A stretch of 64,000 bases of DNA from Myxococcales bacterium (GCA_009692535.1 SHYZ01000002.1:8444-72443), one strand, 5' to 3'; numbered from the stretch's first letter, positions 1-53,511 are shown. The notes: generated by a model from the sequence alone, not told the origin. Translations and numbers: made by a program.

Positions 1-2483
1 ACCAGGACCCGATCGACGGCCGCTTCGTCTACCGCGCCGCGTTCAGCGAATTCATCGACACGTCGGGCGGCCGCAGCGGCGAGGGCGCGGTCGAGAACTT
101 CGAGCAGGTTGTGCTGCAGAAGGCGGCGCCGGCGACGAAGGGCGTCGACTTCGCCGACCGCGACGAGGAGTTCGAGCTGCCGAAGACCGTCGCGGAGCTC
201 GACGAGGTCTGGAAGGCGTGGATCCTCGCGCTGCGCGACGAGCAGACCGGCAAGGAGGATCCCGAGCGGCCCTACCTTTCGTGGGCGCGCCACGCGCTGA
301 CGCGCAAGGACCACTCCGCCGCCAAGGAACACTTCGAGAAGGGCGTCGTGGCGCAGCCCGACGACGTCGACCTGCACCTCGAGTTTGCCCGCTACCTCCA
401 GTCGCGGGAGAAGGGCGGCAAGGGTGCGCGCGCGTCCGATCGCGCCGCCAAGCTCGCGTTGCGTGCCCTGCAACTGATCGAGGGGCAGGAGAAGGTCGGC
501 GAGAAAAAGATCGACGAAAAGAAGCTGAAGGAGGCCGACTCGCTCCTCACCGCGCTCGACCCGAAGCGCCGGATGCTCGACCGCATCCTGGAGCAACTCG
601 AAGCGGCCGCCGGCGGCATCGCCGAGCGCTACCTCACCGCGGGCCGACCACGGATGGCGATGGAAGTGAGCTGGCGGCTCGGCACCGAACTCGGTTTCCC
701 GAAGCTCTTCGAGATCTTCGAGCGCGCGGCGCGGTCATCGGGGAAGTCGCTCGCGCTCTGGCAGCTCGCCTACGACGAGAAGGGCTTCGACGGCTGGATC
801 GACGCCGGCAACGACGCGTTCCATCCGGCGGGCGCGGAGATCGCGTCGAAGTTCGGCGACCTCACGTCGGGCAAGTTCGACTACCAGTTCCTGATGCGCG
901 ACACGATCACGTCGGGCGATTTCTCGTTCGAGGCCGAGCTGCTGGCCGAGCACAACCTGCTCTCCTTCGCCGGCCTGGTCTTCGGCAAGAAAGCGAGCAG
1001 CACCTTCCACACGCTGGTCTACTACCCCGGCCGCGCCGCCGACGCGCGCTACGGCATCGAGGCGCGCCAGGCCGCGGTCGACCTCACCAGCTTCTATGGG
1101 CCGGCTGACTACCGCGTCTGGCGCCACAACGTGCTGCCGGGCACCGCATCGGGCTGGCATCGCCTGCGCGTCGACATCGTCGGCCGCATGGTCGACGTCT
1201 GGTGCGACGGCGAGCTGGTCGTGACCCAGGAGTTTCCGAGCCTCGACGTGCTGCGCGGCAACTTCGGCCTCATCACTGGGCCGGGCGAGGCGCATTGGCG
1301 CAACCTCCGCTACCTCGCCCGCCACTCGCGCGATCCGGGCGCGCTGATCGAACGCGACCTCACCATGCAGCGCCTGAAAGACGCAGCGGCGAAGAGCGGC
1401 AACCTGATCGGCGGGAGCTTCGTCGGGTTGACCCCGCCGTTCCCGACCGCGGTCCAGTGGGTGCGCGAGCCGCGGACCAGCTTCGACGAGGCCGGCAAGG
1501 TGCCGCAGCTGCTGCTGTTTTTCTCGATCGCCCAGAACGACCGTCTCGCGGTCGATGGCTGGCTGAAGGAGTTCTTCGAGAAGTGGCGCGACGTCGGGTT
1601 GAAGGTGATCTGCATCGGATCGCCCGACGATCTCGACCTCGCGGCCTACCTCGCCAAGCACTCCTTCGTTGGTTCCGTCGGCTACGACACCCGCGTGCGC
1701 GGCCGGCAGACCTACGGCATCACCTACGAGCAGTACCTGATCCCGCGCTTCAACCTGCCGCGCACGCTGCTGATCGACGTCGACGAGCGCGTGGCGTGGG
1801 AGGGTGATCCGGGCTTCAGCTTCAACGAGCCATGGCAGCCGGGCGCGGGCAGCTTCCTCGATGCGCCGATGGACGAGCTGGTTGCCAGGCGCGCGTTGCG
1901 GCTGCTGCCGGCGTGGCGGACGGCGTGGGCCGACGGCGGCGAGGCGGCGTGGAAGGCGGGGGACGTGGCGACGGCGCTGCCGTTGCTGAAGCAGGCCAAC
2001 GCGATGTACGGCGCGCTCGACGACCGCGTCCTCGCGGTGCGAGCCCAGCTTTCGGTCCTGCGTTCGGCGCTCGGCGCGATCGAGCTGACGGCCGAGAAGA
2101 TCGAGCGCGTCGGCGGTGCCGCTGCGCTGCCGGCGCTTGCCGCGCTCTACGGTTGGGGTGATGCGCTCGGGATGCCGGTGGCGGACGACAACAAGAAGGT
2201 GCTGGCGCCGAAGCTCGCGCGGCCCGAAGCGAAGGCGTTCATGCAACTCGTCGCGCGCGGCAAGGCGCTGAAGAAGGCGATCGAAGGCAAGGCGGGAGTC
2301 GGTGCGGCGACGCCGTTCGTCGCCGAGGTGGCGAAGCTCGGTGGGCCGCTCGCGCCGCTGTATGGTGCGTTCCTCGCCGAACAGGTCGCGATTGGCGATT
2401 CGGTGGCATTGGTCGCATGGCTCGAACAGGCGGATGTGCGCGTCGGCGGGGCGTGGCTCGCGAAGGAGCTGTTCCGCTGGTAG
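1..2483 (+). CDS. Multidomain exported protein, 5' end cut by window edge (TPR-like N-terminus, LamG/DUF1080-like jelly-roll, Cys-less thioredoxin-fold domain)
   Basis: Frame is open from nt 3 to TAG 2481-2483. Motifs GDFSFEAELL..FAGLVFG..WHRLRVDIVGRMVDVWCDGELV (concanavalin-like) and VPQLLLFFS..GLKVICIGSPDD (Trx fold without CXXC). Other frames translate to Arg/Pro-rich junk. Confidence 0.6.
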   Translation, partial: QDPIDGRFVYRAAFSEFIDTSGGRSGEGAVENFEQVVLQKAAPATKGVDFADRDEEFELPKTVAELDEVWKAWILALRDEQTGKEDPERPYLSWARHALTRKDHSAAKEHFEKGVVAQPDDVDLHLEFARYLQSREKGGKGARASDRAAKLALRALQLIEGQEKVGEKKIDEKKLKEADSLLTALDPKRRMLDRILEQLEAAAGGIAERYLTAGRPRMAMEVSWRLGTELGFPKLFEIFERAARSSGKSLALWQLAYDEKGFDGWIDAGNDAFHPAGAEIASKFGDLTSGKFDYQFLMRDTITSGDFSFEAELLAEHNLLSFAGLVFGKKASSTFHTLVYYPGRAADARYGIEARQAAVDLTSFYGPADYRVWRHNVLPGTASGWHRLRVDIVGRMVDVWCDGELVVTQEFPSLDVLRGNFGLITGPGEAHWRNLRYLARHSRDPGALIERDLTMQRLKDAAAKSGNLIGGSFVGLTPPFPTAVQWVREPRTSFDEAGKVPQLLLFFSIAQNDRLAVDGWLKEFFEKWRDVGLKVICIGSPDDLDLAAYLAKHSFVGSVGYDTRVRGRQTYGITYEQYLIPRFNLPRTLLIDVDERVAWEGDPGFSFNEPWQPGAGSFLDAPMDELVARRALRLLPAWRTAWADGGEAAWKAGDVATALPLLKQANAMYGALDDRVLAVRAQLSVLRSALGAIELTAEKIERVGGAAALPALAALYGWGDALGMPVADDNKKVLAPKLARPEAKAFMQLVARGKALKKAIEGKAGVGAATPFVAEVAKLGGPLAPLYGAFLAEQVAIGDSVALVAWLEQADVRVGGAWLAKELFRW

Positions 2484-2509: not shown

Positions 2510-3448
2510 ATGACGAAGTCGATCGCAGCGCTGTTGCTGGGGTCTTGGGGTGCATCGCACGAGGCGTCCGCACAGGAGGCGGCGACATCCGCGGGTGATG
2601 CCGCGTGCGCGAAGTGCGCCGAGTGTCCGGAGTCGCCGATCGGTGGCGAGCTCTCGATGACCGCGACGACGCACTACTTCTTCCGCGGGCTGATCCAGGA
2701 AGATCAGGGGCTGATCTTCCAGCCCGCGCTGTCGCTGTCGACCGATCTGTGGTCGGGCGATGGACCGGTGCAGTCGCTCGAACTCTCCGTCTGCAGTTGG
2801 AACAGCCTGCATTCCGGGCCCACCGGCACCGGCGGCCATGGCAACAACTCGCCGAGCGCCTGGTACGAGTCGGACTTGCTCGCCGGCCTCACGTTCAACT
2901 TCGCCGGCGGCATGACGCTCGACGCGTCGTGGGTCGAGTACACCATCCCGAACGGGCTGTTCAAGACGACCAGCGAGATCGACTTCGTGGTCGGTTTTGA
3001 CGACTCGGAATGGTGCGCGCGGACGATGGGCCTGTCCGGCGGCTTCGGCCCCACCGTGACGCTTGGCATCGAGGTGGACGGGCAGAGCGATCAGAACGGC
3101 GCGCCCGCCGGCACCGACGAGGGGAAGTTCCTCGGCTTCGGCATCGCGCCGAGCTTCGACTGCTGCACGCTCGGCTCGGGCGAGTTCGCGACTCCGTGCA
3201 CGATGTCGTTCCCGCTCAACGCCGGCTTCAGCCTCGGCGACTACTACGAGGACGCGACCGGCGACGACGACCGCTTCGGTTACTGGGATGTCGGCGTCTT
3301 CGTCTCGTTTCCGATCGCGTCGCGCTTCGGCGAGTGGCAGATGTCGCTCGGCACGCAGGCGGTGATGCTGAACGGCAACCAGGAAGACCTGAACCACGGC
3401 GAGTCGTTCGAGTGGACCGGCACCATGGCGCTCTCGATCGGGTTCTGA
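2510..3448 (+). CDS. Outer-membrane beta-barrel protein, unknown family
   Basis: ATG 2510 is preceded by GGGGGAGGG. Signal peptide MTKSIAALLLGSWGASHEASAQ. Alternating strand-like pattern. C-terminus ...LSIGF has the terminal Phe typical of OMPs. Confidence 0.6.
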   Translation: MTKSIAALLLGSWGASHEASAQEAATSAGDAACAKCAECPESPIGGELSMTATTHYFFRGLIQEDQGLIFQPALSLSTDLWSGDGPVQSLELSVCSWNSLHSGPTGTGGHGNNSPSAWYESDLLAGLTFNFAGGMTLDASWVEYTIPNGLFKTTSEIDFVVGFDDSEWCARTMGLSGGFGPTVTLGIEVDGQSDQNGAPAGTDEGKFLGFGIAPSFDCCTLGSGEFATPCTMSFPLNAGFSLGDYYEDATGDDDRFGYWDVGVFVSFPIASRFGEWQMSLGTQAVMLNGNQEDLNHGESFEWTGTMALSIGF

Positions 3449-3566: not shown

Positions 3567-5888
3567 ATGCGACTGTTCGGCCCGATGCTGCTGTGTCTTG
3601 TCGTCGGCGTCGCCGTCGGAGCCGGATTCACCAAACTCCTTTCGCTGACGCCGGTGGCGCTGCAGCGGTCGAGCGGCAGTGATCGTGTCGCGCACGCGGA
3701 GCAGAAGAACCTCTCCGCAGCGGCTGCCGATGTCCCCTCCCTCCCCTCCCTCCCCGCGCCGGTCGAGGCAGAGCGAGTCGTTCTTCCGTCGGTCGTCAGC
3801 GCACCGAGCAGTGTGATCGAGGACGCGACGCGTGCGGCGCGCACGGCGCCGCTGCCATCGCGCGTCCGCGGCGATCGCAAGGTGAACGGACGCGTCGCGC
3901 GCTCGGACGGCAGCGGTGTCTCAGGTGTCGTCGTGCGAGCGCGTCTGCTGGACACTCGCGGCCGTGAACCGGGTCCGCCGCGCCTCGGCCTCGCGGCGCC
4001 GCTGTCCGACTCGCTCGATCGTGCCATCCAGCGCGCCGTCGAGTCGTGGTACGAGCAGGCGGGTCGCCGGGTCGAGACGACCACCGATGGCGACGGCCGC
4101 TACGAGTTGGCCGAGCTGCCGGCCGGACGCTGGTCGCTCGAACCGTGGAGCGAGGGTTTTGCGATCGAAGTGCCGGGCGGCGGTTCGACCGAAGTCGAAC
4201 CCGATGCGACCCTCGACTTCGTCGCAACACCCGTCGAGCGCGTGTCGATCACCGTGTTGCTTCCGAATGGCGACCCACCCGCGCGCGCCGCGATCCAACT
4301 GCGCAGCGGCCAAAGCGGCGGCGCCGGCCTGACGCTGTTGTGGACCGACGCGACGCGTGAGATCGCGGTGAAGCCGGGCGGTTACGAGGCGCGTGCCACG
4401 CTCGGCGATCCCGAGCAGGGGCCGGCATGGAGCGAGGTGCTCGCCTCCGATTGGACGACGATCGAGGTTGAGGAGGGCGTCATTCCCGCGCGCCTGCGTC
4501 TGACGTTGAAGGGCGCGCCCGGCTTGCGTGGACGCATCGTCTTCCCGACCGGCGCGAAGCGCGGGAACGTGATGGTGAGGATCGCGCCCGCGCCGGCGAA
4601 CACGCCGCCCGATCTCGTCGCGCTCACCAACGACCACTCCGCGCCGACTTCATGGGCGAGCCAAGGCACCTACCTGTTCCGCGACCTCGCACCCGGGTGC
4701 TACGTCGTCGGCGTCGCCCGCAATTGGGGCGAGCGGATCGTCGCGCACGCCGTCGTCGACGTGAAGGACGCGATGGTCGTGCAGGACCTCGCGATCCCGG
4801 CGGCGGATCCGTCGACCTCGCTGGTCGTCAAGGTGCTCGACGCCGACGGCGCCTTGGTCGAGGAGTGCGATTTCCATCTGGAGGTTGGCAACGCCGAAGG
4901 CCGTTCGACTGGCACCACCGCCTCCGCCGAACGCAAGGCGAATGGCAACTGGTGGGTTTCGCTCGCGGTGGTGAACGACGTTGACCTTGCCACGCCGTGG
5001 CCCGACGGTACGACGGTCAAGCTGACGGTGTCGACCTCTCGATTCGGATCGAAGTCGGTCGACATCGCGCCTGGCACGCGGGCGCTGCAGGTGCGTTTCG
5101 GCGCGCCCGCGAAGCTCCTGGCGACGATCGAAGGCTATGCCGGGAGCGGCTACGAAGGACGGTTGCAGCTCACGCTCGATCCGGTCGGCAGCGACGACGG
5201 CGCTTTCGCGCCACGCTCGCTCAACGGTCGCCAGGGCGTCGCTGCCGACGGCACGCAGACGTTCGGCCCGATCGAGGCCGGTGCATGGCGCCTCAAGCTG
5301 CAACTGCAGCAGAAGCAGGCCTGGCAGCGCCGGACGCTGGCGACGGTCGAGGTCGCGCTGGTGCCCGGCGACAACCGCGCCGCCATCGCGATCCCCACCA
5401 TCTCCGACCTCGTCGTGTCGGCGCCCGGCCGCTCGGGCACGATCCAGCTCCAGAACGTCGTGACCAAGGAGACCGAGCACGAATCGCTCGACGCGGAGGG
5501 CAGCGTCACGTTCGCGGGACTCCCCGCCGGCGACTACACGCTGCAGACGTTCGGCGGCGTCTTCGAGTTGATGCGCGTGCGCGTGCCCTGCGCCGGCGTG
5601 CTCCGCTTCGAACCGATGACGGTGAATGCCGCGCTCGTGACCATCACCGATCGCGCGGGCACGCTGGAGGCGATCGGCTTCCGTGACGGCGATCTGATCG
5701 TCGGCATCGACGGCAACGAGTTCGAGTCGAGCATGCAGATGCAGATCATCCTGATGCAGTCGATCGCGAAGGCGAAAGTCACCTTCACCCTCCTGCGCGG
5801 TAACCAACGAGTTGAGCTCGACGTGAATCCGAAGGATTTGATGAACCCGCAGAAACAAGGTGGATCGATCGAACCGACCAGCCGCTGA
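3567..5888 (+). CDS. Membrane-anchored carboxypeptidase-regulatory-like (Ig/transthyretin-like) repeat protein with C-terminal PDZ domain
   Basis: ATG 3567 gives N-terminal TM MRLFGPMLLCLVVGVAVGAGF. Motifs GRVARSDGSGVSGVVVRA and TDGDGRYELAELPAGRW (CarboxypepD_reg type). C-terminal PDZ motif GFRDGDLIVGIDGNEF. Confidence 0.7.
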   Translation: MRLFGPMLLCLVVGVAVGAGFTKLLSLTPVALQRSSGSDRVAHAEQKNLSAAAADVPSLPSLPAPVEAERVVLPSVVSAPSSVIEDATRAARTAPLPSRVRGDRKVNGRVARSDGSGVSGVVVRARLLDTRGREPGPPRLGLAAPLSDSLDRAIQRAVESWYEQAGRRVETTTDGDGRYELAELPAGRWSLEPWSEGFAIEVPGGGSTEVEPDATLDFVATPVERVSITVLLPNGDPPARAAIQLRSGQSGGAGLTLLWTDATREIAVKPGGYEARATLGDPEQGPAWSEVLASDWTTIEVEEGVIPARLRLTLKGAPGLRGRIVFPTGAKRGNVMVRIAPAPANTPPDLVALTNDHSAPTSWASQGTYLFRDLAPGCYVVGVARNWGERIVAHAVVDVKDAMVVQDLAIPAADPSTSLVVKVLDADGALVEECDFHLEVGNAEGRSTGTTASAERKANGNWWVSLAVVNDVDLATPWPDGTTVKLTVSTSRFGSKSVDIAPGTRALQVRFGAPAKLLATIEGYAGSGYEGRLQLTLDPVGSDDGAFAPRSLNGRQGVAADGTQTFGPIEAGAWRLKLQLQQKQAWQRRTLATVEVALVPGDNRAAIAIPTISDLVVSAPGRSGTIQLQNVVTKETEHESLDAEGSVTFAGLPAGDYTLQTFGGVFELMRVRVPCAGVLRFEPMTVNAALVTITDRAGTLEAIGFRDGDLIVGIDGNEFESSMQMQIILMQSIAKAKVTFTLLRGNQRVELDVNPKDLMNPQKQGGSIEPTSR

Positions 5889-5951
5889 ACAAGACTGTGG
5901 CGAACCGCAGGCGCGGCCCGCCGTTCCCGCCCGGTGCGAGGAGCAGCTCCG

Positions 5952-8324
5952 ATGTCTCGACCGTTGATCGCGATGGCCGCCGGCTTGGTGGTCGGCGCTG
6001 TCGCTGGCGCCGGCGCGATGGCGTTCCTGGGTGGCGGCGGCAAGTCGCTGCTCGCGGCGCAGGCCAAGACTCAAGCGGCCGATCGCGACGGGGAGTCGGC
6101 GACACCGAGCACCGCGCCGGCCCTGGCGCTGGTCGATCCATCGCTGGCGCCCGAACGCGTCGAGCGTGCCGCCGGCGCGACCGCGATCCCGGGCGAGCTC
6201 TCCGAGGGCGTTGGCGAGCTGATGCGCCGCGCGCCAGGCAAGCCGGTCGCCGCCGGCGATCGGGCGCTCAAGGGGCGCGTCGTCGATGTGCGCGGCAACC
6301 CGCTGGCCGGCGTTGTCATCCGCGCGGTGCGCCACGGCGATCCGGTGCCGCTGCTGCCTGAAGTGTCCGCGGTCGGACGCGGCGCACCGCCGCCGCCTTC
6401 GCTCGAGGAGTCGGTCCGAACGGCGATCGCGGCGTGGTACGAGACCGGCGGTGAGTTCCGCGAGGTCATGACCGGCGGCGACGGCCGCTACGAGCTCGCC
6501 GAGCTGCGTGATGGGCAATACACCGCGTCGGCGTGGAAGAGCGGCTGGGTATTCGACTCCGAGCACGGTCGCGGCCAAGTCAGCGTCCGGCCCGACGCGA
6601 AGCTCGACTGGAACGGGAAGGCGGTGCGGTCGCAGCAAGTCGTCGTCGAGCTGCCCGATGGCAGCGGCGCGCCATGCGCGAACGTCGAGTACCGCAAGCA
6701 GGGCCACGACGACTCCGCAGGCACGCAGGGCTGGTTGGCGAACCAGCCGACGATCGTGCTCGAGCCAGGTTCATGGGAGCTGCGAGCGACGCTCGGTCAT
6801 CCGCAGTCGGGACCGGCGTGGCCCGACTACCTGGTGTCGCCGTGGGTGAAAGTCGCGGAAAGCAGCGGGGGCGAGTCGGCGGCCGTGACCGTGCGCATGG
6901 TCGGAAAAGCCGGCGTGCGCGGACGCGTGACGCTGTCGACTGGCAAATCGGCGCCGCAGGCGCTGGTCAAGGTGAAGAAACTCGAATCGGGGGAGAGCGC
7001 CGACCCGGAGTCGATGCGCGACCGCGACGACGACGGCGGCACGATCCAAAGCGATTGGATCGGCAACGGCGAATACACGTTCGTTGACTTGAAGCCGGGC
7101 CGCTACCTGCTGACGGCCCAGCGCCACTGGAATGCCCCGATCCTGATCCACGCGCAGGTCGAAGTCGACGACAAGATGGTGCAGCACGACCTCGTGATGC
7201 CCGAACTCGATCGCGCCACCTGCCTCGAGGTCACGGTCCGCGCGCCCGACGGGACGCTGGTGCCCGAGATCAACTTCCAGTGGCGCTTCGACGGCGGCGA
7301 CAACAACTACAACCACGGGGATTGCACCTCCGATCGGCGTGACGTCGGCGTGTGGTGGTTGCCGCTCGAAGCGGCGAAGCAGGGCGAGTTCGATCCGCTC
7401 GGGGCGTGGCCGTCGGGATCGCACCTCTACCTCATCGCGGATCACGCGGACTACGGCTCGACCGCGGCCGAGGTGTTCGCGGCGACCCGCAGCCTCGAAG
7501 TGAAGTTCGGCCCGCCGGCGACCCTGCGGGTGACGGTGCTGGGGATGACCGGCGCGAACTTCGCCGGCACCATCAACCTCGGGCTCAATCGCGTCGGCAA
7601 CGGCATCGATTCCGCGGGCCATGGCGCGGGCGGCCAACCCAACAAGGAGGAGGGGGTCGCGCGGCTTGGTCCGGTCGAGGCCGGGCGCTGGAAGCTCACC
7701 ATGTGGATGAGCTCGAACAAGTCGCAGCGCTGGAACCAGTTCGAGGCGGCGTCGGCGGAGGTCACGCTGACGCCGGGCGAGAACGAGGCGACGCTGTCGA
7801 TCCCGACGCTCTACTCGATGGTGCTGCGGCTGCCCGAAGGTGTCGAAGGCCAGATCAACCTCGAGCAAACGGCCAAGACGCAAAACCGACGCTGGCTCCA
7901 CGGCCAGATCGAGAAGGACGGCGCGCAGAACAAGGCCGTGTTCGAGGACATCCCGGCTGGCGAGTATCGCGCCACGCTCCAGAACGGCCCGAAGCCTGGC
8001 GTGATGACGATCCATGTGCCGGGCAACGGCGGCGTGGTCGACTGGGCGCCGCAGCCGATCAATGCGGTGCTGGTCACGTTCAACGAGAACTCGGCAGCGG
8101 TCGCCGAGCTTGGCTTCGCCGATGGCGACATCATCACGGCGATCGATGGCAAGGAGGTCGCGAGCTCGGTCGATTTGCAGGTGATGTGGACCTTGGCGCG
8201 TGCGCAGCGTGAGATCGAGCTCACCATCCAGCGCGGCGGTGAAGCCGTGACGCTCAAGGTCGACGGCAAGAAGCTGATGGCGCAGGGCCGCAGCGGCGCG
8301 ATGTACGAGCCGACGACGCGATGA
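5952..8324 (+). CDS. Paralogue of 3567-5888: membrane-anchored CarboxypepD_reg-like repeat protein with C-terminal PDZ domain
   Basis: ATG 5952 follows GAGGAG. TM LIAMAAGLVVGAVAGAGAMAF. Motifs GRVVDVRGNPLAGVVIRA and GGDGRYELAELRDGQY. PDZ motif GFADGDIITAIDGKEV. Collinear with the upstream gene over its full length. Confidence 0.7.
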   Translation: MSRPLIAMAAGLVVGAVAGAGAMAFLGGGGKSLLAAQAKTQAADRDGESATPSTAPALALVDPSLAPERVERAAGATAIPGELSEGVGELMRRAPGKPVAAGDRALKGRVVDVRGNPLAGVVIRAVRHGDPVPLLPEVSAVGRGAPPPPSLEESVRTAIAAWYETGGEFREVMTGGDGRYELAELRDGQYTASAWKSGWVFDSEHGRGQVSVRPDAKLDWNGKAVRSQQVVVELPDGSGAPCANVEYRKQGHDDSAGTQGWLANQPTIVLEPGSWELRATLGHPQSGPAWPDYLVSPWVKVAESSGGESAAVTVRMVGKAGVRGRVTLSTGKSAPQALVKVKKLESGESADPESMRDRDDDGGTIQSDWIGNGEYTFVDLKPGRYLLTAQRHWNAPILIHAQVEVDDKMVQHDLVMPELDRATCLEVTVRAPDGTLVPEINFQWRFDGGDNNYNHGDCTSDRRDVGVWWLPLEAAKQGEFDPLGAWPSGSHLYLIADHADYGSTAAEVFAATRSLEVKFGPPATLRVTVLGMTGANFAGTINLGLNRVGNGIDSAGHGAGGQPNKEEGVARLGPVEAGRWKLTMWMSSNKSQRWNQFEAASAEVTLTPGENEATLSIPTLYSMVLRLPEGVEGQINLEQTAKTQNRRWLHGQIEKDGAQNKAVFEDIPAGEYRATLQNGPKPGVMTIHVPGNGGVVDWAPQPINAVLVTFNENSAAVAELGFADGDIITAIDGKEVASSVDLQVMWTLARAQREIELTIQRGGEAVTLKVDGKKLMAQGRSGAMYEPTTR

Positions 8325-10084
8325 GGTGGCGGTGCGACGCGCGCGCGCGGACGGCATGGCTGCTGGCGACGGCGGCTTGCGGGTTCGCGTCGGCGCGGGC
8401 GCAGGACGCAGCAGGAACGGTCGAATCGCCAGGTATTCCATTGAGCCAGTCGGCGTGGCGCGGGAGCCCGGTGCTGGAGCTCTACCGCTACCTTTCGGAG
8501 CGGGTGTTCGCCTCGCATCCGTCGCTCGTGGGCGTCGCGCGCGCGGTGTTCGAGTCGCGCGTGATCGCCGCGGTGCGCCAGCGCCTGATCGAAGAGCCCG
8601 ACCGGCGCGGGCGCGCCGGCGTCACGCTCCCCGAGGCGGACGGTGACCACGCGAAACCGGTCGCGCCGCTGCCGGAAGGGGCTCCGCTCGCGGACCTGAT
8701 CCGCGAGGCGCAGCGGCAACTGCAGTTCGAGATGACCGGTGGCGCCGGCTGGGCGACGGAGGATGCCAGTGCGCTGGCGCAGCTCTGGCTCGAGCCGTCG
8801 ATCGACTTCGCCGAAGAGACGGTGCGCGAACGGTTCGAGCTGCTGGTCGACGGCCTGATCGATTCGCTGCACGATCCGCACTGCCAGGCGATCCACTCGC
8901 GAAACCTGCTGCAGTCGGCGCTGGTCGAGCTGCTCGGCACGGCCTCGACGCTCGGGCTCGAGGTTCAGGCGACGGCGGATGGCGGTTTCGCGATCGAGTT
9001 CGCGATCGACTGGAGCGATGCGGCGCGCAAGGGCGTGCGGCGCGGCGATCGGCTGCTTTCGGTCGACGGGCGATCGGTCGCCGGTCACTCGCTGCGTGAA
9101 GTGCAGCACGCGATCGAGCGGCCGTGCCGGATGCACCTCGCGCGCGGTGCGGACGAGGAATACGACGTCGCAGTCGGGATCTGCAATCCGCAGCAAGCGC
9201 TGACCCGATCGACGCTGCTCGATGGCGAGATCGGTTGGATCTCGTTCCCCCTGTTCCGCGCCGGCGCGATCTTCGAGGTGCGTGACGCCGTCCGCTCGCT
9301 GGTCGCGCAGGGTGCGAGGGCGCTGCTGCTCGACCTGCGCGGCAACCCGGGCGGGTTGGTGAACGAGGCTGGCCTCATCGCGAACCTCTTCATCCGCGAG
9401 GGGTGCAAGGTCATCGAGACGCTGCCTCGCGTCGACGAGGACGACGCCGACTTCACGACCGGCCCAGCGCTCTTCCCCGACCTGCCGCTGGTGGTGCTGG
9501 TGGACCGCTGCTCGGCCAGCGCCGCCGAAGTGATTGCGGCCGCCTTCCAGGACGAGCATCGCGCGCTGCTGGTGGGGGAGACGACCTACGGCAAAGGCGT
9601 CGGCCAGTCGACGCTGCAGTTGCGCAGCTACGTTCCGGGCAGCGCAACGTTCGCGCCCGGGTTCACCGCCACCTCGCTGACCACCTTCGAGCTGCGTTCG
9701 CCGCTCGGCCGCGACTGGCACCACGTCGGGCTCGTGCCGGACCTGCGCGCCGCGACCGCGGTCGAGTCGATGGCGCGGATCGCGGCGCGCGCGCGGTTCC
9801 TCGACGACCCGTGGCTCGATGAGAAGCTGCTCGAACTCGCGCTCACCGACGACGAGATCGCGCAGCTGCGCAAGGCCGGGCCGCCGCCGCCGAGGGTGGT
9901 CGCGGCGGCGAAGTCGATCGGAGCGGCGCCGCAGGGCGACGATGAGCACGAGGCGCTGAAGGATGTCGCGCGGTTGCTGCTGCAGGCGGCGAATCCCGCC
10001 CTCGCCGCGTGCCCCGAGATCGATCCGGTGCTGGCGAAGGCGCTGCGGGCGGCGCGGCTGGCGTTGCGATCGTCCGGCGGATGA
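8321..10084 (+). CDS. S41 family C-terminal processing (tail-specific) peptidase with PDZ domain
   Basis: ATG 8321 overlaps the upstream stop (ATGA). Signal peptide present. PDZ motif GVRRGDRLLSVDGRSV. S41 motifs LLLDLRGNPGG, VLVDRCSASAAEVIA (Ser) and TYGKGVGQS (Lys). Confidence 0.85.
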   Translation: MRWRCDARARTAWLLATAACGFASARAQDAAGTVESPGIPLSQSAWRGSPVLELYRYLSERVFASHPSLVGVARAVFESRVIAAVRQRLIEEPDRRGRAGVTLPEADGDHAKPVAPLPEGAPLADLIREAQRQLQFEMTGGAGWATEDASALAQLWLEPSIDFAEETVRERFELLVDGLIDSLHDPHCQAIHSRNLLQSALVELLGTASTLGLEVQATADGGFAIEFAIDWSDAARKGVRRGDRLLSVDGRSVAGHSLREVQHAIERPCRMHLARGADEEYDVAVGICNPQQALTRSTLLDGEIGWISFPLFRAGAIFEVRDAVRSLVAQGARALLLDLRGNPGGLVNEAGLIANLFIREGCKVIETLPRVDEDDADFTTGPALFPDLPLVVLVDRCSASAAEVIAAAFQDEHRALLVGETTYGKGVGQSTLQLRSYVPGSATFAPGFTATSLTTFELRSPLGRDWHHVGLVPDLRAATAVESMARIAARARFLDDPWLDEKLLELALTDDEIAQLRKAGPPPPRVVAAAKSIGAAPQGDDEHEALKDVARLLLQAANPALAACPEIDPVLAKALRAARLALRSSGG

Positions 10085-10096
10085 GCGGTCAGGCGC

Positions 10097-11635
10097 TCAG
10101 GCGTCGAGCACCATCACCGCGTTCGAGACCGTGAATCCCGCAGGGACGCCGGGATCGACGACCAGCGTCTGCGTCACGAGCTGCACGCCGATCAGGCTCG
10201 GCGGGATGGTCTCGGCGAGGTCGAAGGCGCCGGTGCCCGCACCGCTTCCGGTCAGGAACAGCGAGAGCACGTCCGGCAACAGCGGCGCGACATGGAGCGA
10301 GCCGCCCGACTTCCCCATCGGCAGATCGGCGAAGTCGGTGCCGAAGACCAGCAGCGCGAGCGACCCGCCGAGCCCGTCACGCAGCGACAGCGTGATGTCC
10401 TCGCCCGGCATCGGCAGTCCATCAAGCGTCAGCGTCGGCACGAAGCCGCCGCTTCCCGGGCAGCCACCGTTCCGTGTTCGATCGAGCGTCGCGACGAAAA
10501 CGCCGTACCCCTTCGCGCCATCGGTGAACGTCGCGCGGAACGCCAACTGATGGCCATCGAAGCCGCGGTGCGAGAAGGTGAAGTGCGAGACCGTCCGACC
10601 GCCGAGTGTGGTGGCGGAGGTCGCGACCGTGTGGATCGTGCCGTCGAGCAGCAGGTAGAGCCCCTCGGTCGTCCCGCTCCATGCCGTGAACGCGAGCGCA
10701 CCGTCGGACCAGCCGAAGACACCGTTCACGGTGTCGAACGTGCCACCGCCCGGCGCCGGATCCCCATCCATCACCCACGCCGTGATCGGGCCGGCGCCGT
10801 TTGCGTGGAGCGGAGCGCTGAAGATTCCCGCCTTGGTCTTGCTCCAGCCGAAGAAGGCGACGTCGTTGGCGTCGTGGTCGGTCGCGCCGAGGTAGGTGAA
10901 CTTTTCGCTGGTGCCCGGCACCACGCTGCTGCCGTTGGCGACCAGCTCGACGGTGCCGGAAGTGATGTCGATGGTGTAGCAGCCGTAGCTGGTGCCGCCG
11001 GTGACGTTGGTGCGGGCAGGAACGCTGACGAAGTTCCCGTCGAGCGCCGGCATCTCGATGAAGTCGGAGTGGATGTAGGTGCCGCCGCCCGGAAGCGATT
11101 GGCCGCGGACCAGCAACAAGGTCTCGCTGCCGCCGTTCAGCGGCATCACGTTCGGATAGGTCCCGCGCAAGAACGCGACCCCGCTCGCGCCTGCCGACAG
11201 CGGCAGTCCGCCGAGCCCAACGTACTGGACCGACGTTGTCGTCGATGCGGTGTAGATCCCGTCGTAGCCGCTCCACCCATGGCCGGGGAATTCATCGCCG
11301 GCCGGGAAGTAGGCCGCGCCGGCGACGAGCGCGGGGTTCCAGAGCCAGGCGATCAGCTTGCCGGAAGTGTGAGGCGAGGCGTCACCGACGCTCACGAGCG
11401 AGACCAGTGGGCCCTGCCCGTTCGACGGCCCGATCACGATGGTGTCGACACCGCGGACCGTGTCGATCCCGGTCAGGGCGACTTGGCCAGCGTCGACGAC
11501 CGGATACTGGCCGTTCGGCACGACGACGGTCGTGTCTTCCGCGATTCGGACGAGCGACAGATGCTGCGCGGGAGCGACCGAAGCAAGGACGCCATTCACG
11601 ACGAGCGCGGCGCAGGCAGAGTGAAGGCTGAACAT
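10097..11635 (-). CDS. Secreted repeat protein of unknown function (NxxGxxAF-like repeats)
   Basis: Internal ATG 11635 gives signal peptide MFSLHSACAALVVNGVLASVAPAQ. Repeated motifs NDVAFFGW, GALAFTAW and HQLAFRATFTDG..GVFVA. The track's upstream extension is Arg-rich. Confidence 0.5.
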   Translation of the reverse strand: MFSLHSACAALVVNGVLASVAPAQHLSLVRIAEDTTVVVPNGQYPVVDAGQVALTGIDTVRGVDTIVIGPSNGQGPLVSLVSVGDASPHTSGKLIAWLWNPALVAGAAYFPAGDEFPGHGWSGYDGIYTASTTTSVQYVGLGGLPLSAGASGVAFLRGTYPNVMPLNGGSETLLLVRGQSLPGGGTYIHSDFIEMPALDGNFVSVPARTNVTGGTSYGCYTIDITSGTVELVANGSSVVPGTSEKFTYLGATDHDANDVAFFGWSKTKAGIFSAPLHANGAGPITAWVMDGDPAPGGGTFDTVNGVFGWSDGALAFTAWSGTTEGLYLLLDGTIHTVATSATTLGGRTVSHFTFSHRGFDGHQLAFRATFTDGAKGYGVFVATLDRTRNGGCPGSGGFVPTLTLDGLPMPGEDITLSLRDGLGGSLALLVFGTDFADLPMGKSGGSLHVAPLLPDVLSLFLTGSGAGTGAFDLAETIPPSLIGVQLVTQTLVVDPGVPAGFTVSNAVMVLDA

Positions 11636-11839
11636 CGTGCGGTCTCCTTGGACCGAGCGATGGCAATCGGGGTGCCGGCGTTGATGGTGCGAAATGCACC
11701 GGGTGGCCGATCGAGAATCGCAGGAGCGGCGAGGCAGGGGGGCAAATCGCGGGACACTGAAGATGGCCGTCGTCCAGCATTTGGATGGCACGGGACGAAG
11801 TTGCACGGCACGCATTGCACGGCCACGCGACTTCGAAGG

Positions 11840-14437
11840 CTAGTCGTGTTCGGCGGCGCCCTGCGGGTAGCCGAGCTGGTCGAGCATCCTTGCAAGCTCG
11901 GGCGAGAGCTCGAACTGCGCTCGGCTTTCCTGCTGCGCGAGCGATGATTTCTGGCGCTCGAATTCGGCGAGGCGGGCGTCAAGTTGGCGCTGCATTCCGG
12001 CGGTCCGCGCTGGTTCGTCGGCGGAGCGGTCGCGCGATTCCTGCGGGTCCTCGTCGAGCCGATAGAGCGCGACTGGCCATGGGCGTTCGTCGATGCGGCG
12101 GCGGACCAGCTTCCATGGCCACCGCACCAACGCGTCTTGGTCGGGCCGGTTGGCGATGCGGCGCAGCGACAACACGACCGGCTCGTCGTCGGCGGCGTTG
12201 CTGGCGCCGGTCGCTTCCGCGCTGAACTGGTCGATGGCCAGCACGCGCGGATCGAAGCCGAGGCCGAGCCGGCCGGCGATGGTGGGGGCGACGTCGGCCA
12301 GCACGACCGGCGTCTCGCGCACTTCGCCGCTTGGCACGCCGGGGCCAGCCATGATCCACGGCACCTGCGTGAGCGTGTGCCAGAGCTCGTCGCCGTGGCC
12401 GATCATGCGGTGCTCGAAGAACTCCTCGCCGTGGTCGGCGACCAGCACGACCAGGGTGTTCTCGGTCAGCTCGAGTGATTCGAGCGCTGCGACCAGGCGT
12501 GCGACGATCTCCGCGTCGGCTTGCGCCAGCGATGCGACATAGAGCGCCCGCAGGCGCGCGATGGCGGCGGCGTCGCCGGCCGCGGCCGCGCCGCGGATCG
12601 CGGTGAGCTCCTCGCGCGTGGGACGCGGCCCGCCGCCGACGCGGTCGAGCCATGGCGGGTGGGGGCGGTAGTTGTGGACGAGGTAGGTGTGGAGGAAGAG
12701 GAAGAACGGCGCATCGCGGCTCGCAGTGATCCAGTCGATCACCTCGCCCATTCGATCCTCGCCCGGCTGCGCGTCGTCGTCCTGTGCGTCGCCGATGCGG
12801 CGATGGAGGCCGACGATGCCGCCCGGATCGCGGATCGAGTAGCGGTCGAAGCCGACGCCGAAGCCGTAGCGCGGATGGACCAGTCCACCGGCGGTGAAGG
12901 CCGCGGTGCGCCAGCCCAACTCGCGCAGCCGGGCGGCGAGCGGCAGGGTCCGCAACGGATCCATCGGGTCGGTCGACGCGACCGTCTCGTGCACCAGCGG
13001 ATCCTGCCCCGACAGCATCGATAGGTGGGTCGGGAGCGTGTAGGACGCGGGTGAGAAGACGCGGGCGAAACGGGTGCCGCGAGCGGCCAGCGCGTCGAGC
13101 GCCGGCGTCGCGACCTGGGTGCCGCCGTAGCAGCCGACATGGTCGGCGCGCAGCGTGTCGAGCGAAACGACGATCACGTTCGGCGGGGTCGCTGCGGTCG
13201 GAGTCGGCGCCGGGCTCGGTTCTGACAGCAGCGTCGGCGCGCCGAGCAGCACGACGCTTCCGCGCGGACCAAGCGCGCCGAAGCGCAGCGTCACGTGGCG
13301 CCCTGCGTATGCGGCGAGCGCGATCGACTGCAGTTGCCAGCGCCTTTCGCCCGGCCGATCGCTGGTCAGTGGCGTCGCCGCAGCCATCGGCAGCGCGCAC
13401 TTCGTCCCCGCCTCGATCAAGAGGCCGAAGAGTCGCACTTCGCTAGGCGCTGTCGCCAATGCCGCGACGCCGAACTCGAGGCGCGCGCCGTGTGCCGGCA
13501 CGACGACATCGAACTCGACGCTGCCCGGCGCCGGCAGCGCGAGGCAGTCCCACGTCTCGAGGTCGAGCTCGACGCGACGTCGCAGCGGATGGGTGGCGAT
13601 CTCGACCGTCTCGTCGCCGGAGAGCGCGAGTGTCTCCGCCGCAGTGAGGCGCCGCAGTTCCACGCGATCGAGCGCAACGCCGCACGCGCCGCCGCTGACG
13701 GCGAAGGCGAGCGCCTTGCGGCCGGGATAGGGATGGACGACCGCGCGCAGCTCATGCCAGGTCGCGTGAGCGCCGGCGGCGGCGCCGGCCGCAAGGCGCG
13801 TCGCCCGCGGCTTGCGCGTGAACTCGCCCGCGTGATCGTGCAGGTCACGCACGAAGTCGTCGCCCTCGGGGGGCACGTGGTCGAGCGGCACGTAGTCGAG
13901 GCTCGGCGGCACCGGCTCGATCGGGGGCGTGCCGTCCGTGGTTGGCGTGGGCGGCGGCATCGGTGCCAGTCGCGCGACCCGGGCAGAGAGCAGGAAGCTC
14001 GTGTCGGCGTCGACCGGCGCGGTCGTCATCAGGAAGTCGCCGGCTTGAATCGCGACGGAGTCGCGCGTCCCATCGTGCAGCGGGCGCTGCGATCGTTTCC
14101 GCAACACGATTGCGTCCGCGCCGCCTTCGAGCGCCGCCTCGACGAACGACTTGCTGTGCCAGCGACCTGGAAACGGCACATCGGTCGCCATCTCGTCGGC
14201 CAGCAGCAGGTCGTCCGGCGCCGCCTCGCCGAGCGTGCCGAAGAAGGCGCCGGATTCGGGCAGGTCGAAGCGCGCGGAGTCGAGCCGTTCGAGCAGACGC
14301 GTGACGGACGGCAGCGCCGCGTCGTGGTGTGCAGCATCGTCGTGCGCAGCATCGCCGACCGTGCAATGCACGAGCGGCATCCCCACGCCCGCTACCACGA
14401 TTGCCGCGACGAGCGCACGTCCGCCTGCCACGCTCAT
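11840..14437 (-). CDS. Sulfatase-like alkaline-phosphatase-superfamily enzyme (Thr-type nucleophile motif) with large N-terminal domain
   Basis: Motifs NVIVVSLDTLRADHVG, SPASYTLPTHLSMLSG (T-x-P-x-H in place of C-x-P-x-R), HTYLVHNY and VLVADHGEEF. The ATG overlaps the stop of the upstream paralogue (ATGA at 14434-14437). Confidence 0.75.
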   Translation of the reverse strand: MSVAGGRALVAAIVVAGVGMPLVHCTVGDAAHDDAAHHDAALPSVTRLLERLDSARFDLPESGAFFGTLGEAAPDDLLLADEMATDVPFPGRWHSKSFVEAALEGGADAIVLRKRSQRPLHDGTRDSVAIQAGDFLMTTAPVDADTSFLLSARVARLAPMPPPTPTTDGTPPIEPVPPSLDYVPLDHVPPEGDDFVRDLHDHAGEFTRKPRATRLAAGAAAGAHATWHELRAVVHPYPGRKALAFAVSGGACGVALDRVELRRLTAAETLALSGDETVEIATHPLRRRVELDLETWDCLALPAPGSVEFDVVVPAHGARLEFGVAALATAPSEVRLFGLLIEAGTKCALPMAAATPLTSDRPGERRWQLQSIALAAYAGRHVTLRFGALGPRGSVVLLGAPTLLSEPSPAPTPTAATPPNVIVVSLDTLRADHVGCYGGTQVATPALDALAARGTRFARVFSPASYTLPTHLSMLSGQDPLVHETVASTDPMDPLRTLPLAARLRELGWRTAAFTAGGLVHPRYGFGVGFDRYSIRDPGGIVGLHRRIGDAQDDDAQPGEDRMGEVIDWITASRDAPFFLFLHTYLVHNYRPHPPWLDRVGGGPRPTREELTAIRGAAAAGDAAAIARLRALYVASLAQADAEIVARLVAALESLELTENTLVVLVADHGEEFFEHRMIGHGDELWHTLTQVPWIMAGPGVPSGEVRETPVVLADVAPTIAGRLGLGFDPRVLAIDQFSAEATGASNAADDEPVVLSLRRIANRPDQDALVRWPWKLVRRRIDERPWPVALYRLDEDPQESRDRSADEPARTAGMQRQLDARLAEFERQKSSLAQQESRAQFELSPELARMLDQLGYPQGAAEHD

Positions 14438-34830: not shown

Positions 34831-34841
34831 GCTGCCGCCAC

Positions 34842-35705: not shown

Positions 35706-35879
35706 TCGCGTCGTCGCGAGCATCGCCGCGCGCGTTGCCTCCGTCGGCAGGAAAGCCGTTCCAACCGTCGTGATCACCAGGCGCGCCGACTTCATCGGCG
35801 CCATCGCCTACCGATGAGATCCGCTGTGAAGTCGCGGGCCGTCCGCGATGGCGATTGATGCCGCTGGAGCGAACGCAAC

Positions 35880-53375: not shown

Positions 53376-53511
53376 CACGGCTTTCCTTCGTCAGTACAGT
53401 TGTTGCTTCAGATGTTGCGTCGGAGTTGTGGGCGTCGTTGCCGACGCGGGCAGGGGGCGCACGATACGCCGGCGTTTTGCGCAACGTTGGCGCGAAAGCC
53501 TGAGGAGTGTC

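What the first reader, a model, noticed from the sequence alone, without database searches (positions are those of the whole stretch)
3567..10084. Tandem paralogous TM-CarboxypepD_reg-PDZ proteins translationally coupled to an S41 C-terminal processing peptidase
Two proteins of about 770-790 aa are collinear along their whole length. Shared blocks include GDGRYELAEL, ATLG.P..GPAW and the C-terminal PDZ G(F)(R/A)DGD(L/I)I..IDG.E..SS. Both end in a similar tail, GGSIEPTSR versus GAMYEPTTR. The second gene's stop overlaps the ATG of an S41 peptidase (ATGA at 8321-8324) that has its own PDZ and a signal peptide. S41 enzymes recognise substrate C-termini. A dedicated protease encoded with two PDZ-bearing surface or periplasmic repeat proteins that have conserved tails suggests a processing or quality-control module. 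I do not recognise this architecture as a described system.
Basis: inference. Interest (0 to 1): 0.6.

Follow-up and report, generated by a model that had tools for sequence, protein, structure and literature searches.

The report
Membrane stalk proteins with self-docking tails, plus protease
Two old duplicate genes for membrane-anchored stalk proteins, each tipped by a peptide-binding (PDZ) domain that seems to hold the protein's own conserved tail, sit directly before a distinctive tail-recognising protease; the pairing is real and old but optional, so it looks like an add-on regulator of a large, unstudied planctomycete envelope protein family.

Summary
Genes A (3567-5888) and B (5952-8324) are collinear paralogues (32% identity, E 5e-118). 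Each has a TM anchor, beta-sandwich repeats, a C-terminal PDZ domain and a similar tail. B's stop overlaps the ATG of an S41 peptidase (ATGA, 8321-8324).

- **Family size:** A and B belong to a large unnamed family found mostly in Planctomycetota, with at least 150 full-length cluster representatives.
- **Tail:** The tail G-G-x-[LFM]-E-P-x-[ST]-R-COOH marks the whole family, whether or not an S41 gene is nearby.
- **Self-docking:** AlphaFold2 and covariation both place the tail as a strand against the ligand-binding strand (beta2) of the protein's own PDZ. This is inferred, because model coordinates could not be read.
- **S41 enzyme:** It has an intact Ser400/Lys425/Gln429 active site and belongs to a small distinct clade, not the housekeeping Ctp type.
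- **Linkage:** S41 follows B at -4 to +15 nt in 7 lineages diverged to about 45% identity. It was lost twice while B stayed, and it is absent from distant family members.

Best reading: S41 is an optional, co-expressed protease acting on or with these self-latched stalk proteins. Nothing here shows the substrate. I rate it a new variant of a known kind, of moderate interest.

The parts
2510..3448 (+). Context gene: probable outer-membrane beta-barrel protein (312 aa from the internal ATG). It has a signal peptide and ends in ...LSIGF-COOH.
   Evidence: Translation. Orthologues at 55-66% identity sit at the same position in L003, L007 and L031, and all end in LSIGF. There is a weak TorF-family porin hit and no Pfam hit.
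3567..5888 (+). Paralogue A (773 aa): TM anchor, disordered linker, beta-sandwich stalk, PDZ, and tail GGSIEPTSR-COOH.
   Evidence: It falls in the A-type clade of the NJ tree.
5952..8324 (+). Paralogue B (790 aa), same architecture, tail GAMYEPTTR-COOH.
5961..6041 (+). B residues 4-30: the single N-terminal TM helix, with a conserved glycine zipper (G11, G15, G19).
   Evidence: Hydropathy scan. G15 and G19 are invariant and G11 nearly so. The same pattern is seen across distant representatives.
6261..8042 (+). B residues 104-697: about six tandem prealbumin/CarboxypepD_reg-like beta-sandwich domains forming the stalk.
   Evidence: AF2 secondary structure and pLDDT, mostly 75-93. Foldseek matches Gram-positive pilin, CnaB and SdrD stalks. 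Pfam CarboxypepD_reg, SdrD_B and NOMO-like hits.
8064..8264 (+). B residues 705-771: prokaryotic-type PDZ domain (beta2 705-710, alpha2 739-749).
   Evidence: PDZ_2 at 8.5e-09. Sequence matches to HtrA, DegQ and GspC PDZ domains in the PDB. Fragment model has pLDDT 85.8 and resembles RseP, DegQ, DegS, Nas2 and GRASP PDZ domains.
8295..8321 (+). B residues 782-790: conserved tail G-A-M-Y-E-P-T-T-R-COOH, predicted to dock as a strand on PDZ beta2.
   Evidence: Family-wide motif. It is a strand in both AF2 models. Covariation register i+j = 1491-1495.
8321..8324 (+). ATGA: B's TGA stop overlaps the S41 ATG start.
   Evidence: Direct reading of the sequence.
8321..10084 (+). S41 C-terminal processing peptidase (587 aa) of a distinct clade. 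It has a signal-peptide-like N-terminus, a clade-specific helical N-region, a PDZ, the catalytic core, and a clade-specific C-terminal region.
8945..9127 (+). S41 residues 209-269: PDZ domain.
   Evidence: Pfam PDZ at 1.7e-05 and PDZ_6 at 8.7e-06.
9518..9607 (+). S41 catalytic residues: Ser400 (9518-9520), Lys425 (9593-9595) and Gln429 (9605-9607).
   Evidence: All three are invariant in alignment A3. The 25-residue Ser-to-Lys spacing and Lys+4 Gln match Prc S430/K455 and CtpB S309/K334/Q338; those reference numbers are from my own knowledge.
111..2483 (+). Context gene: the C-terminal 790 aa of a roughly 1240-aa TPR plus DUF1080-like protein, cut by the window edge. It is constantly linked upstream in relatives.

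Best explanation
A and B are ancient paralogues of a large, unnamed, mostly planctomycetal family of bitopic envelope proteins.

**Shown or predicted from sequence**
- An N-terminal glycine-zipper TM anchor.
- A disordered Pro/Ala-rich linker of about 70 residues.
- About six prealbumin-like beta-sandwich domains forming a stalk.
- A distal prokaryotic-type PDZ domain.
- A 20-residue tail ending in G-G-x-[LFM]-E-P-x-[ST]-R-COOH.

**Predicted (AF2 plus covariation)**
The tail lies antiparallel on PDZ strand beta2, with the terminal Arg carboxylate at the loop before beta2. This is the canonical PDZ ligand position. The PDZ is therefore occupied by its own tail, or by a neighbour's tail in an oligomer, and acts as a latch.

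**Shown**
In the B lineage, a catalytically intact S41 C-terminal processing peptidase of a distinct clade is encoded immediately downstream and is translationally coupled here.

**Inferred**
S41 is an accessory partner made together with B. It acts on the stalk proteins, most likely by capturing the tail once it leaves the PDZ groove and then trimming or degrading the protein. That would give regulated turnover or processing of the stalks. Because S41 is dispensable in several lineages, this is a modulatory layer and not the family's core function.
For: **Paralogy and architecture:**

**Family size and hallmark tail**
- A profile search found 150 listed full-length representatives, all at E <= 5.5e-106.
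- 125 of 160 sequences end in Arg, and 105 of 160 fit the motif.
- The seven listed representatives whose match stops near profile position 690-717 (P0153, P0198, P0226, P0228, P0233, P0236, P0264) lack the PDZ and also lack the tail. PDZ and tail therefore come and go together.

**Tail on the PDZ**
- The tail is a strand in the full-length model (residues 783-788, pLDDT about 72).
- It stays a strand when only the PDZ and tail are modelled (pLDDT 85.8, last five residues 88). The partner strand must therefore be inside the PDZ.
- The strongest tail-to-PDZ covarying pairs fall on beta2 and its loop (703-789, 704/705-786, 710-783) and on alpha2 (743/747-786).
- Four of the five best antiparallel registers, out of 80 tested, are i+j = 1491-1495.

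**S41 is active and distinct:**

**Linkage**
- B then S41 at -4 to +15 nt in 7 lineages.
- This includes the basal B lineage (L035), so the link is ancestral to the B clade.

**Literature**
- Substrate C-termini are required for degradation by CtpA (bioRxiv 10.1101/2020.03.31.019315).
- CTP PDZ domains gate activity (PMC6686036).
- Tails binding their own PDZ are known for Dishevelled and X11 (PMC13142005, PMC2891790).
Against: - No direct evidence shows that A or B are S41 substrates.
- S41 was lost twice while B was retained. In L031, both A and B were retained.
- Distant family members with the same tail have no adjacent S41 (L004, L034).
- S41-clade members occur alone, with no tail-bearing neighbour (L009-L012).
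- The region as a whole is syntenic (TPR protein, OMP, sulfatases, MurJ), so conserved order may partly be inertia.
- A terminal Arg is not the nonpolar C-terminus reported for Prc substrates (abstract of 10.1101/2020.03.31.019315).
- A tail buried in its own PDZ is not freely available to a protease.
- The docking claim rests on secondary structure, pLDDT and modest covariation (z of 2-4) from 111 related sequences. Model coordinates could not be inspected.
Confidence: 0.4

Rival explanations
1. Adaptor model. A and B are not substrates. They are membrane-anchored scaffolds that position or activate S41 and present other envelope proteins to it, as the lipoproteins LbcA and NlpI do for CtpA and Prc. 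The PDZ opens when a client C-terminus displaces the tail.
For: - Known CTPs of this type need a membrane-anchored partner (PMC8764530, PMC11021448). The closest solved relative of this S41 is P. aeruginosa CtpA, 7RPQ, at 2.8e-72.
- A and B carry a peptide-binding domain on a long stalk.
- Gene coupling is tight.
- The locus also encodes a conserved outer-membrane protein ending in LSIGF-COOH, the kind of aromatic C-terminus that HtrA/DegS-type PDZ domains bind (the DegS YxF rule is from my own knowledge).
Against: - A and B share no homology with the TPR adaptors.
- Most of the family exists without this S41.
- A roughly 1240-aa TPR protein, a more LbcA-like candidate, is encoded upstream and persists where S41 is absent.
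- No interaction was modelled.
Confidence: 0.2
2. No specific relationship. S41 is an independent envelope protease that happens to lie in a slowly rearranging envelope-biogenesis neighbourhood, and A and B act on their own.
For: - Flanking synteny (TPR protein, OMP, two LtaS-like sulfatases, MurJ, thioesterase, ZIP) is conserved across the same lineages.
- S41 was lost twice with no visible change in B or its tail.
- S41-clade members occur alone.
- The tail is independent of S41.
Against: - The same-strand pair keeps -4 to +15 nt spacing in 7 lineages down to about 45% identity, while other genes were inserted or lost around it. Examples are the DnaJ block in L003/L013, a 572-aa gene in the window, and a third paralogue in L001.
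- The S41 belongs to a specialised clade and is not the generic enzyme.
Confidence: 0.3
3. The tail is not a PDZ ligand. It is either a purely structural extra strand of the domain, or a sorting or attachment signal read by machinery encoded elsewhere. The S41 link is then unrelated to it.
For: - The terminal Arg and the Gly-Gly are nearly invariant across a very wide family, as expected for a signal or a structural element.
- AF2 gives a well-ordered strand.
Against: - The tail has no TM segment or basic cluster of the kind seen in known C-terminal sorting signals such as PEP-CTERM, GlyGly-CTERM and LPXTG (my own knowledge).
- Covariation points to beta2 and alpha2, the ligand groove.
- The tail is absent exactly where the PDZ is absent.
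Confidence: 0.1

Closest known systems
LbcA-CtpA (Pseudomonas aeruginosa) and NlpI-Prc (E. coli) proteolytic complexes
   Same: A periplasmic S41 C-terminal processing peptidase with an internal PDZ works with a membrane-anchored partner and depends on substrate C-termini. P. aeruginosa CtpA is the closest solved relative of this S41 (7RPQ, 2.8e-72).
   Different: - The partners here are inner-membrane stalk proteins with their own PDZ, not TPR lipoproteins.
- This S41 has clade-specific N- and C-terminal regions and fails the CtpA, Prc and prc model cutoffs.
- Neither the substrates nor a complex has been shown.
CtpA processing of the photosystem II D1 precursor
   Same: An S41 enzyme removes a short conserved C-terminal extension from a membrane protein. 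D1 protease 1FC6 matches at 1.4e-55.
   Different: - No cleavage site is known here.
- The tail ends in Arg.
- It appears to be held by the protein's own PDZ.
- It is conserved where the protease is absent.
Self-binding C-termini in PDZ proteins (Dishevelled, X11/Mint1, NHERF1)
   Same: The extreme C-terminus folds back into the protein's own PDZ groove and closes it (PMC13142005, PMC2891790).
   Different: - Those are eukaryotic cytosolic scaffolds.
- Here the PDZ is a prokaryotic, circularly permuted type on a periplasmic stalk.
- The docking is predicted, not solved.
NOMO and Gram-positive pilin, CnaB or SdrD B-repeat stalks
   Same: Beads-on-a-string arrays of prealbumin/CarboxypepD_reg-like beta-sandwiches anchored by one TM helix or covalently (Foldseek hits; NOMO2 sequence hit).
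   Different: - No isopeptide or sortase features were examined.
- The anchor is N-terminal.
- The tip carries a PDZ.
GspC of type II secretion, and DegS or RseP PDZ sensors
   Same: Inner-membrane-anchored periplasmic proteins whose HtrA-type PDZ reads C-termini of other envelope proteins (PDZ matches).
   Different: - There is no HR domain and no protease domain in A or B.
- There is no secretion-system context.
- There is essentially no cytoplasmic part to transmit a signal.

Membership tests
Peptidase S41 / C-terminal processing peptidases (CTP) | Peptidase_S41 catalytic domain above Pfam's gathering score | tested here: met
   PF03572 scores 110.7 bits against a cutoff of 24, over residues 304-475.
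Peptidase S41 / C-terminal processing peptidases (CTP) | Ser-Lys catalytic dyad (S-A-S-A-x-E and G-K-G motifs, 25 residues apart), plus the Gln at Lys+4 and the DLRGNPGG loop | tested here: met
   S400, K425, Q429 and D338-G345 are invariant in 14 sequences. The spacing matches Prc and CtpB; those residue numbers are from my own knowledge.
Peptidase S41 / C-terminal processing peptidases (CTP) | PDZ domain inserted before the catalytic core | tested here: met
   PDZ scores 25.5 bits against a cutoff of 23.2, over residues 209-269. The core aligns with CtpA, CtpB and D1P over profile positions 116-460.
Named CTP subfamilies (TIGR00225 prc, CtpA/B/C/Z, Prc/Tsp, MXAN_5808 long form) | Score at or above NCBIfam's curated cutoff | tested here: not met
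   - TIGR00225: 151 bits against 218.6.
- CtpA: 134 against 625.
- CtpB: 125 against 633.
- Prc: 83 against 825.
- MXAN_5808: 114 against 661.
- Homologue scores drop sharply from 1e-80 within the clade to 1e-36 for generic Ctp.
LbcA-CtpA / NlpI-Prc type adaptor-protease complex | A TPR lipoprotein adaptor that binds and activates the protease | not testable with these tools
   A roughly 1240-aa TPR protein is encoded upstream. No complex modelling or lipobox test was possible. A and B are not TPR proteins.
PDZ domain (prokaryotic HtrA/RseP type) in A and B | PDZ_2 above the gathering score, and a PDZ fold | tested here: met
   - B scores 36.0 bits against 27. A scores 26.1 bits, just below.
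- The fragment model has pLDDT 85.8, and its best folds are RseP, DegQ, DegS, Nas2 and GRASP PDZ domains.
Self-liganded (autoinhibited) PDZ | The protein's own C-terminal residues occupy the beta2/alpha2 groove, with the carboxylate in the loop before beta2 | tested here: inconclusive
   The tail is a strand in both models, and its partner lies within the PDZ. The covariation register points to residues 702-712 and to alpha2. Coordinates could not be inspected, and cis versus trans docking is unresolved.
CarboxypepD_reg / prealbumin-like repeat stalk | Repeated beta-sandwich domains above the Pfam cutoff | tested here: met
   PF13620 scores 56.9 bits in A and 50.6 bits in B against a cutoff of 32.3. 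The model has about six sandwiches, with pilin-like structural hits.
Known C-terminal sorting signals (PEP-CTERM, GlyGly-CTERM, LPXTG) | A motif followed by a hydrophobic helix and a basic cluster | tested here: not met
   Only seven residues follow the Gly-Gly. Neither A nor B has a C-terminal hydrophobic segment.

The most novel reading that the evidence does not exclude
The family is a previously unrecognised class of periplasm-spanning 'latched' receptors or tethers of the planctomycetal envelope. The invariant ...E-P-x-x-R-COOH tail keeps the tip PDZ closed. An incoming C-terminus, for example that of the co-encoded outer-membrane protein ending in LSIGF, displaces the tail. In the B lineage, a dedicated S41 protease then reads the freed tail and destroys or trims the stalk. 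Together this would be a new ligand-triggered proteolytic switch.
Probability: 0.12. Interest if true: 0.75.

Novelty: new variant of a known kind. Interest (0 to 1): 0.5.

Why it matters
Planctomycetes have unusual, poorly understood envelopes, and their genomes are rich in PDZ proteins of unknown role (PMC6411480). This analysis defines a large uncharacterised family with a clear, testable design: TM anchor, stalk, PDZ, and an invariant self-docking tail. It also identifies a natural genetic partner, a specialised C-terminal processing protease that is present in some lineages and lost in close relatives. How such proteases choose substrates is an open question (PMC11021448). A conserved tail next to a dedicated enzyme would be a convenient model if the link proves real. 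If it does not, the family and its latch still merit description.

Tried and rejected
- **Word-index homologue searches.** These under-reported the family badly. Twelve hits came from B alone. A 40-sequence profile returned mostly generic CarboxypepD_reg repeat proteins. The narrow alignment added only one new lineage, L024. S41 adjacency in the wide family therefore rests on four loci with enough flanking DNA (L004, L019, L027, L034); L018 is too short to judge.\n- **Co-loss hypothesis.** I considered that A and S41 are always lost together. I rejected it because L031 keeps A and B but lacks S41.\n- **Tail as an S41-specific signature.** Rejected, because the tail is family-wide.\n- **Lipoprotein S41.** The Cys at residue 20 is not conserved in orthologues.\n- **Promoter and terminator scan.** No promoter-like site was found, and terminator-like sites were at chance level.\n- **Tail-bearing proteins near stand-alone S41 genes.** None were found in L009 or L012.\n- **Unavailable tools.** The AFDB Foldseek library was unavailable. 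Model coordinates are not exposed, so contacts were inferred indirectly. No multimer modelling was possible.

Full report
**1. What is in the sequence**

The window has about 69% G+C. Filtering ORFs by codon-position G+C gives this gene order:
- A large protein cut by the left edge of the window (111-2483).
- A protein of about 312 aa (2510-3448).
- Gene A (ATG at 3567, ending at 5888).
- Gene B (ATG at 5952, ending at 8324).
- An S41 peptidase (8321-10084).
- Three convergent genes.

A (773 aa) and B (790 aa) align end to end at 32% identity, E 5e-118. Both carry CarboxypepD_reg repeats and a C-terminal PDZ, and each has a single N-terminal hydrophobic helix. The ATGA overlap at 8321-8324 is exact.

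The S41 protein has a Peptidase_S41 domain (6.9e-32) and a PDZ. Its Arg-rich, then hydrophobic N-terminus aligns with those of its orthologues. This favours the ATG at 8321 over the downstream TTG that a public gene call used (P0013, 547 aa).

**2. The A/B family is large, not local**

The word-index search found only 12 relatives. An exhaustive profile search of 1.84 billion cluster representatives returned far more:
- 150 listed proteins, nearly all 690-820 aa.
- Most of them match the profile end to end.
- All have E <= 5.5e-106.

The true family is therefore larger than 150 clusters. The count of 1039 at E <= 1e-30 probably also includes generic repeat proteins.

Public names are 'hypothetical protein' or 'PDZ domain-containing protein'. 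Related genome records are titled Planctomycetota, Phycisphaerales or Planctomycetaceae MAGs. The identical NCBI protein is labelled 'Myxococcales bacterium'. Neither Pfam nor NCBIfam has a whole-protein model for the family.

**3. Architecture**

AlphaFold2 on B with a 13-sequence alignment gave mean pLDDT 74.7. The model shows:
- Residues 1-100 unstructured, apart from the TM helix.
- About six beta-sandwich domains (residues 104-697, pLDDT mostly 75-93).
- A PDZ (residues 705-771), then a short helical turn.
- A final strand at residues 783-788.

Foldseek matches the stalk to Gram-positive pilin, CnaB and SdrD arrays. A sequence profile also touches NOMO2. The TM helix carries an invariant glycine zipper (G15 and G19, with G11 nearly invariant), which suggests helix-helix association in the membrane.

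**4. The tail**

I examined 160 family sequences.
- 125 end in Arg.
- 105 fit G[GASC]x6R-COOH.
- The consensus is G-G-x-[LFM]-E-P-[TAV]-[ST]-R.

The tail is conserved in members with and without an S41 neighbour. Seven listed representatives match only up to profile position 690-717. These lack the PDZ and also lack the tail, so PDZ and tail form one unit.

Two lines of evidence place the tail on the PDZ.
- **Modelling.** When only the PDZ and tail (B residues 696-790) were modelled, the tail stayed a strand. Confidence was high: mean pLDDT 85.8, pTM 0.76, and 88 for the last five residues. The partner strand must therefore lie within the PDZ.
- **Covariation.** I computed mutual information with average-product correction on 111 distinct C-terminal regions.
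  - The best tail-to-PDZ pairs were 717-783, 703-789, 710-783, 705-786, 704-786, 727-788 and 747-786.
  - In a scan of 80 antiparallel registers, four of the top five were i+j = 1491-1495. That pairs the tail with residues 702-712, which are beta2 and the loop before it.
  - Model strands 705-710 and 783-788 give i+j = 1493.

This is the canonical PDZ ligand geometry, with the terminal carboxylate at the loop preceding beta2 and additional contacts to alpha2.

The statistics are modest (z of 2-4) and the sequences are related, so I treat the docking as probable, not proven. Docking in cis cannot be told apart from docking in trans. The fragment model resembles RseP, DegQ, DegS, Nas2 and GRASP PDZ domains. 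Precedent for self-bound tails exists in Dishevelled and X11 (PMC13142005, PMC2891790).

**5. The S41 enzyme**

Alignment with clade members and generic Ctp enzymes shows that the motifs S398-A-S400-A-x-E403, G424-K425-G426, Q429 and DLRGNPGG are invariant. The enzyme should therefore be active.

Its core is closest to P. aeruginosa CtpA (7RPQ, 2.8e-72), followed by CtpB, D1 protease and Prc. It fails every curated CTP model cutoff. About 11 clusters share its full length at E <= 1e-80. They share a helical N-region and a C-terminal region with the motif ALKDVAR...HP.LAACP.LDP.LAKAL. Scores then fall to 1e-36 for generic Ctp, which covers only the core. It is a specialised clade, not the housekeeping enzyme.

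**6. Is the arrangement conserved?**

| Pattern | Loci |
|---|---|
| B then S41, gap -4 to +15 nt | window (-4), L001 (+4), L033 (+5), L003/L016 (+11), L013 (+11), L017, L035 (+15) |
| A also present | All of the above with enough upstream sequence; L001 has a third paralogue |
| A and B present, S41 absent | L031 (B 68% identical to the window's, the closest relative); B is followed directly by the sulfatase |
| B only | L007/L008; also L014 and L024, whose upstream DNA is cut by the contig end |
| Single family member, no S41 | L005 |
| Distant members, no S41 | L004, L019, L027, L034 |

- **Tree.** A neighbour-joining tree makes A and B old sister clades. It places L031 and the L007 group together as sister to the window's B.
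- **History.** L035 is a basal B-type relative of L005 and does carry S41. The simplest history is an ancestral B-S41 pair with two losses of S41.
- **Stand-alone S41.** S41-clade members also occur alone (L009-L012), with no tail-bearing protein nearby.
- **Wider synteny.** The wider neighbourhood is also syntenic: CHAD protein, 1240-aa TPR/DUF1080 protein, outer-membrane protein, two LtaS-like sulfatases, MurJ, thioesterase and ZIP.
- **Local rearrangements.** Other genes were inserted or lost around the pair. Examples are the DnaJ block in L003 and L013, and the 572-aa gene in the window.

**7. Interpretation**

The link between B and S41 is old, tight and specific to a specialised protease clade. 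This argues for a functional association of some kind, which I put at about 0.6. The link is dispensable, and the tail does not depend on it.

My best mechanism is that S41 is an accessory protease co-produced with B. It would act on the stalk proteins through their C-termini when the tail leaves the PDZ groove, giving regulated trimming or turnover (0.4). This fits what is known of CTPs: substrate C-termini are required, and the CTP PDZ gates activity (10.1101/2020.03.31.019315; PMC6686036).

The rivals are:
- A and B act as LbcA/NlpI-like scaffolds for other substrates (0.2).
- There is no specific relationship (0.3).
- The tail is purely structural or a sorting element (0.1).

**8. Comparison and novelty**

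Every part is of a known kind: an S41 CTP, a prokaryotic PDZ, and prealbumin-like repeats. CTP-partner systems and self-bound PDZ tails are both known. Three things are new:
- The family-level architecture.
- The invariant Arg-terminated tail paired with its PDZ.
- The recurrent coupling of one lineage to a distinct CTP clade.

I rate it a new variant of a known kind, with interest 0.5.

Noticed in passing
window 2510-3448 (+): A conserved protein of about 310 aa with a signal peptide and an invariant ...LSIGF-COOH ending, which is an outer-membrane beta-barrel signature. It sits just upstream of A or B in the window, L003, L007 and L031 at 55-66% identity. Its aromatic C-terminus is the kind of ligand HtrA/DegS-type PDZ domains bind. 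In L001 and L004 an FG-GAP protein takes its place.
   Followed up: partly
window 111-2483 (+), cut by the left edge; full length in L031:2496-6212: A roughly 1240-aa protein with N-terminal TPR repeats and a DUF1080 (3-keto-disaccharide hydrolase-like) domain. It lies upstream of the A/B genes in the window, L001, L003, L005, L007/L008 and L031, with or without S41. It could be an LbcA-like partner.
   Followed up: partly
L019:7336-16028: A Planctomycetaceae MAG carries five tandem, distant, shortened relatives of the family. All end near profile position 675-692, so they lack the PDZ and the tail.
   Followed up: no
L001:5329-7614: This lineage has a third paralogue (761 aa) upstream of A and B, with a degenerate tail (SGELAPTAR). 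In the tree it groups with distant representative P0140, not with the A or B clades.
   Followed up: partly
window 50277-53378 (-): A 1033-aa protein with seven CarboxypepD_reg repeats (1.4e-83). It is only distantly related to A and B (family profile E 2.5e-15) and has no PDZ.
   Followed up: partly
window 8321 versus 8441: A public gene call for the S41 protein (P0013, 547 aa) starts 40 codons later, at a TTG. That removes the signal-peptide-like N-terminus and the overlap with B. Orthologue N-termini support the longer form.
   Followed up: yes
window as a whole; P0001: The identical NCBI protein is labelled 'Myxococcales bacterium'. All related genome records found are titled Planctomycetota, Phycisphaerales or Planctomycetaceae, so the label of the source MAG may be wrong.
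   Followed up: partly
window 10097-11815 (-): A 572-aa protein with a weak DUF7453 hit lies between S41 and the sulfatases in the window only. It is absent at this position in L001, L031 and L035.
   Followed up: no
window 11840-17115 (-): Two adjacent genes for large proteins (865 and 893 aa) with a C-terminal sulfatase/LtaS-like domain. In relatives they are followed by MurJ. The set is conserved next to the A/B locus and points to an envelope-biogenesis neighbourhood.
   Followed up: no
window 34815-35705 (+) and 34905-35804 (-): Two long ORFs on opposite strands overlap almost completely, and both show coding-like codon-position G+C. I did not resolve which one is real.
   Followed up: no
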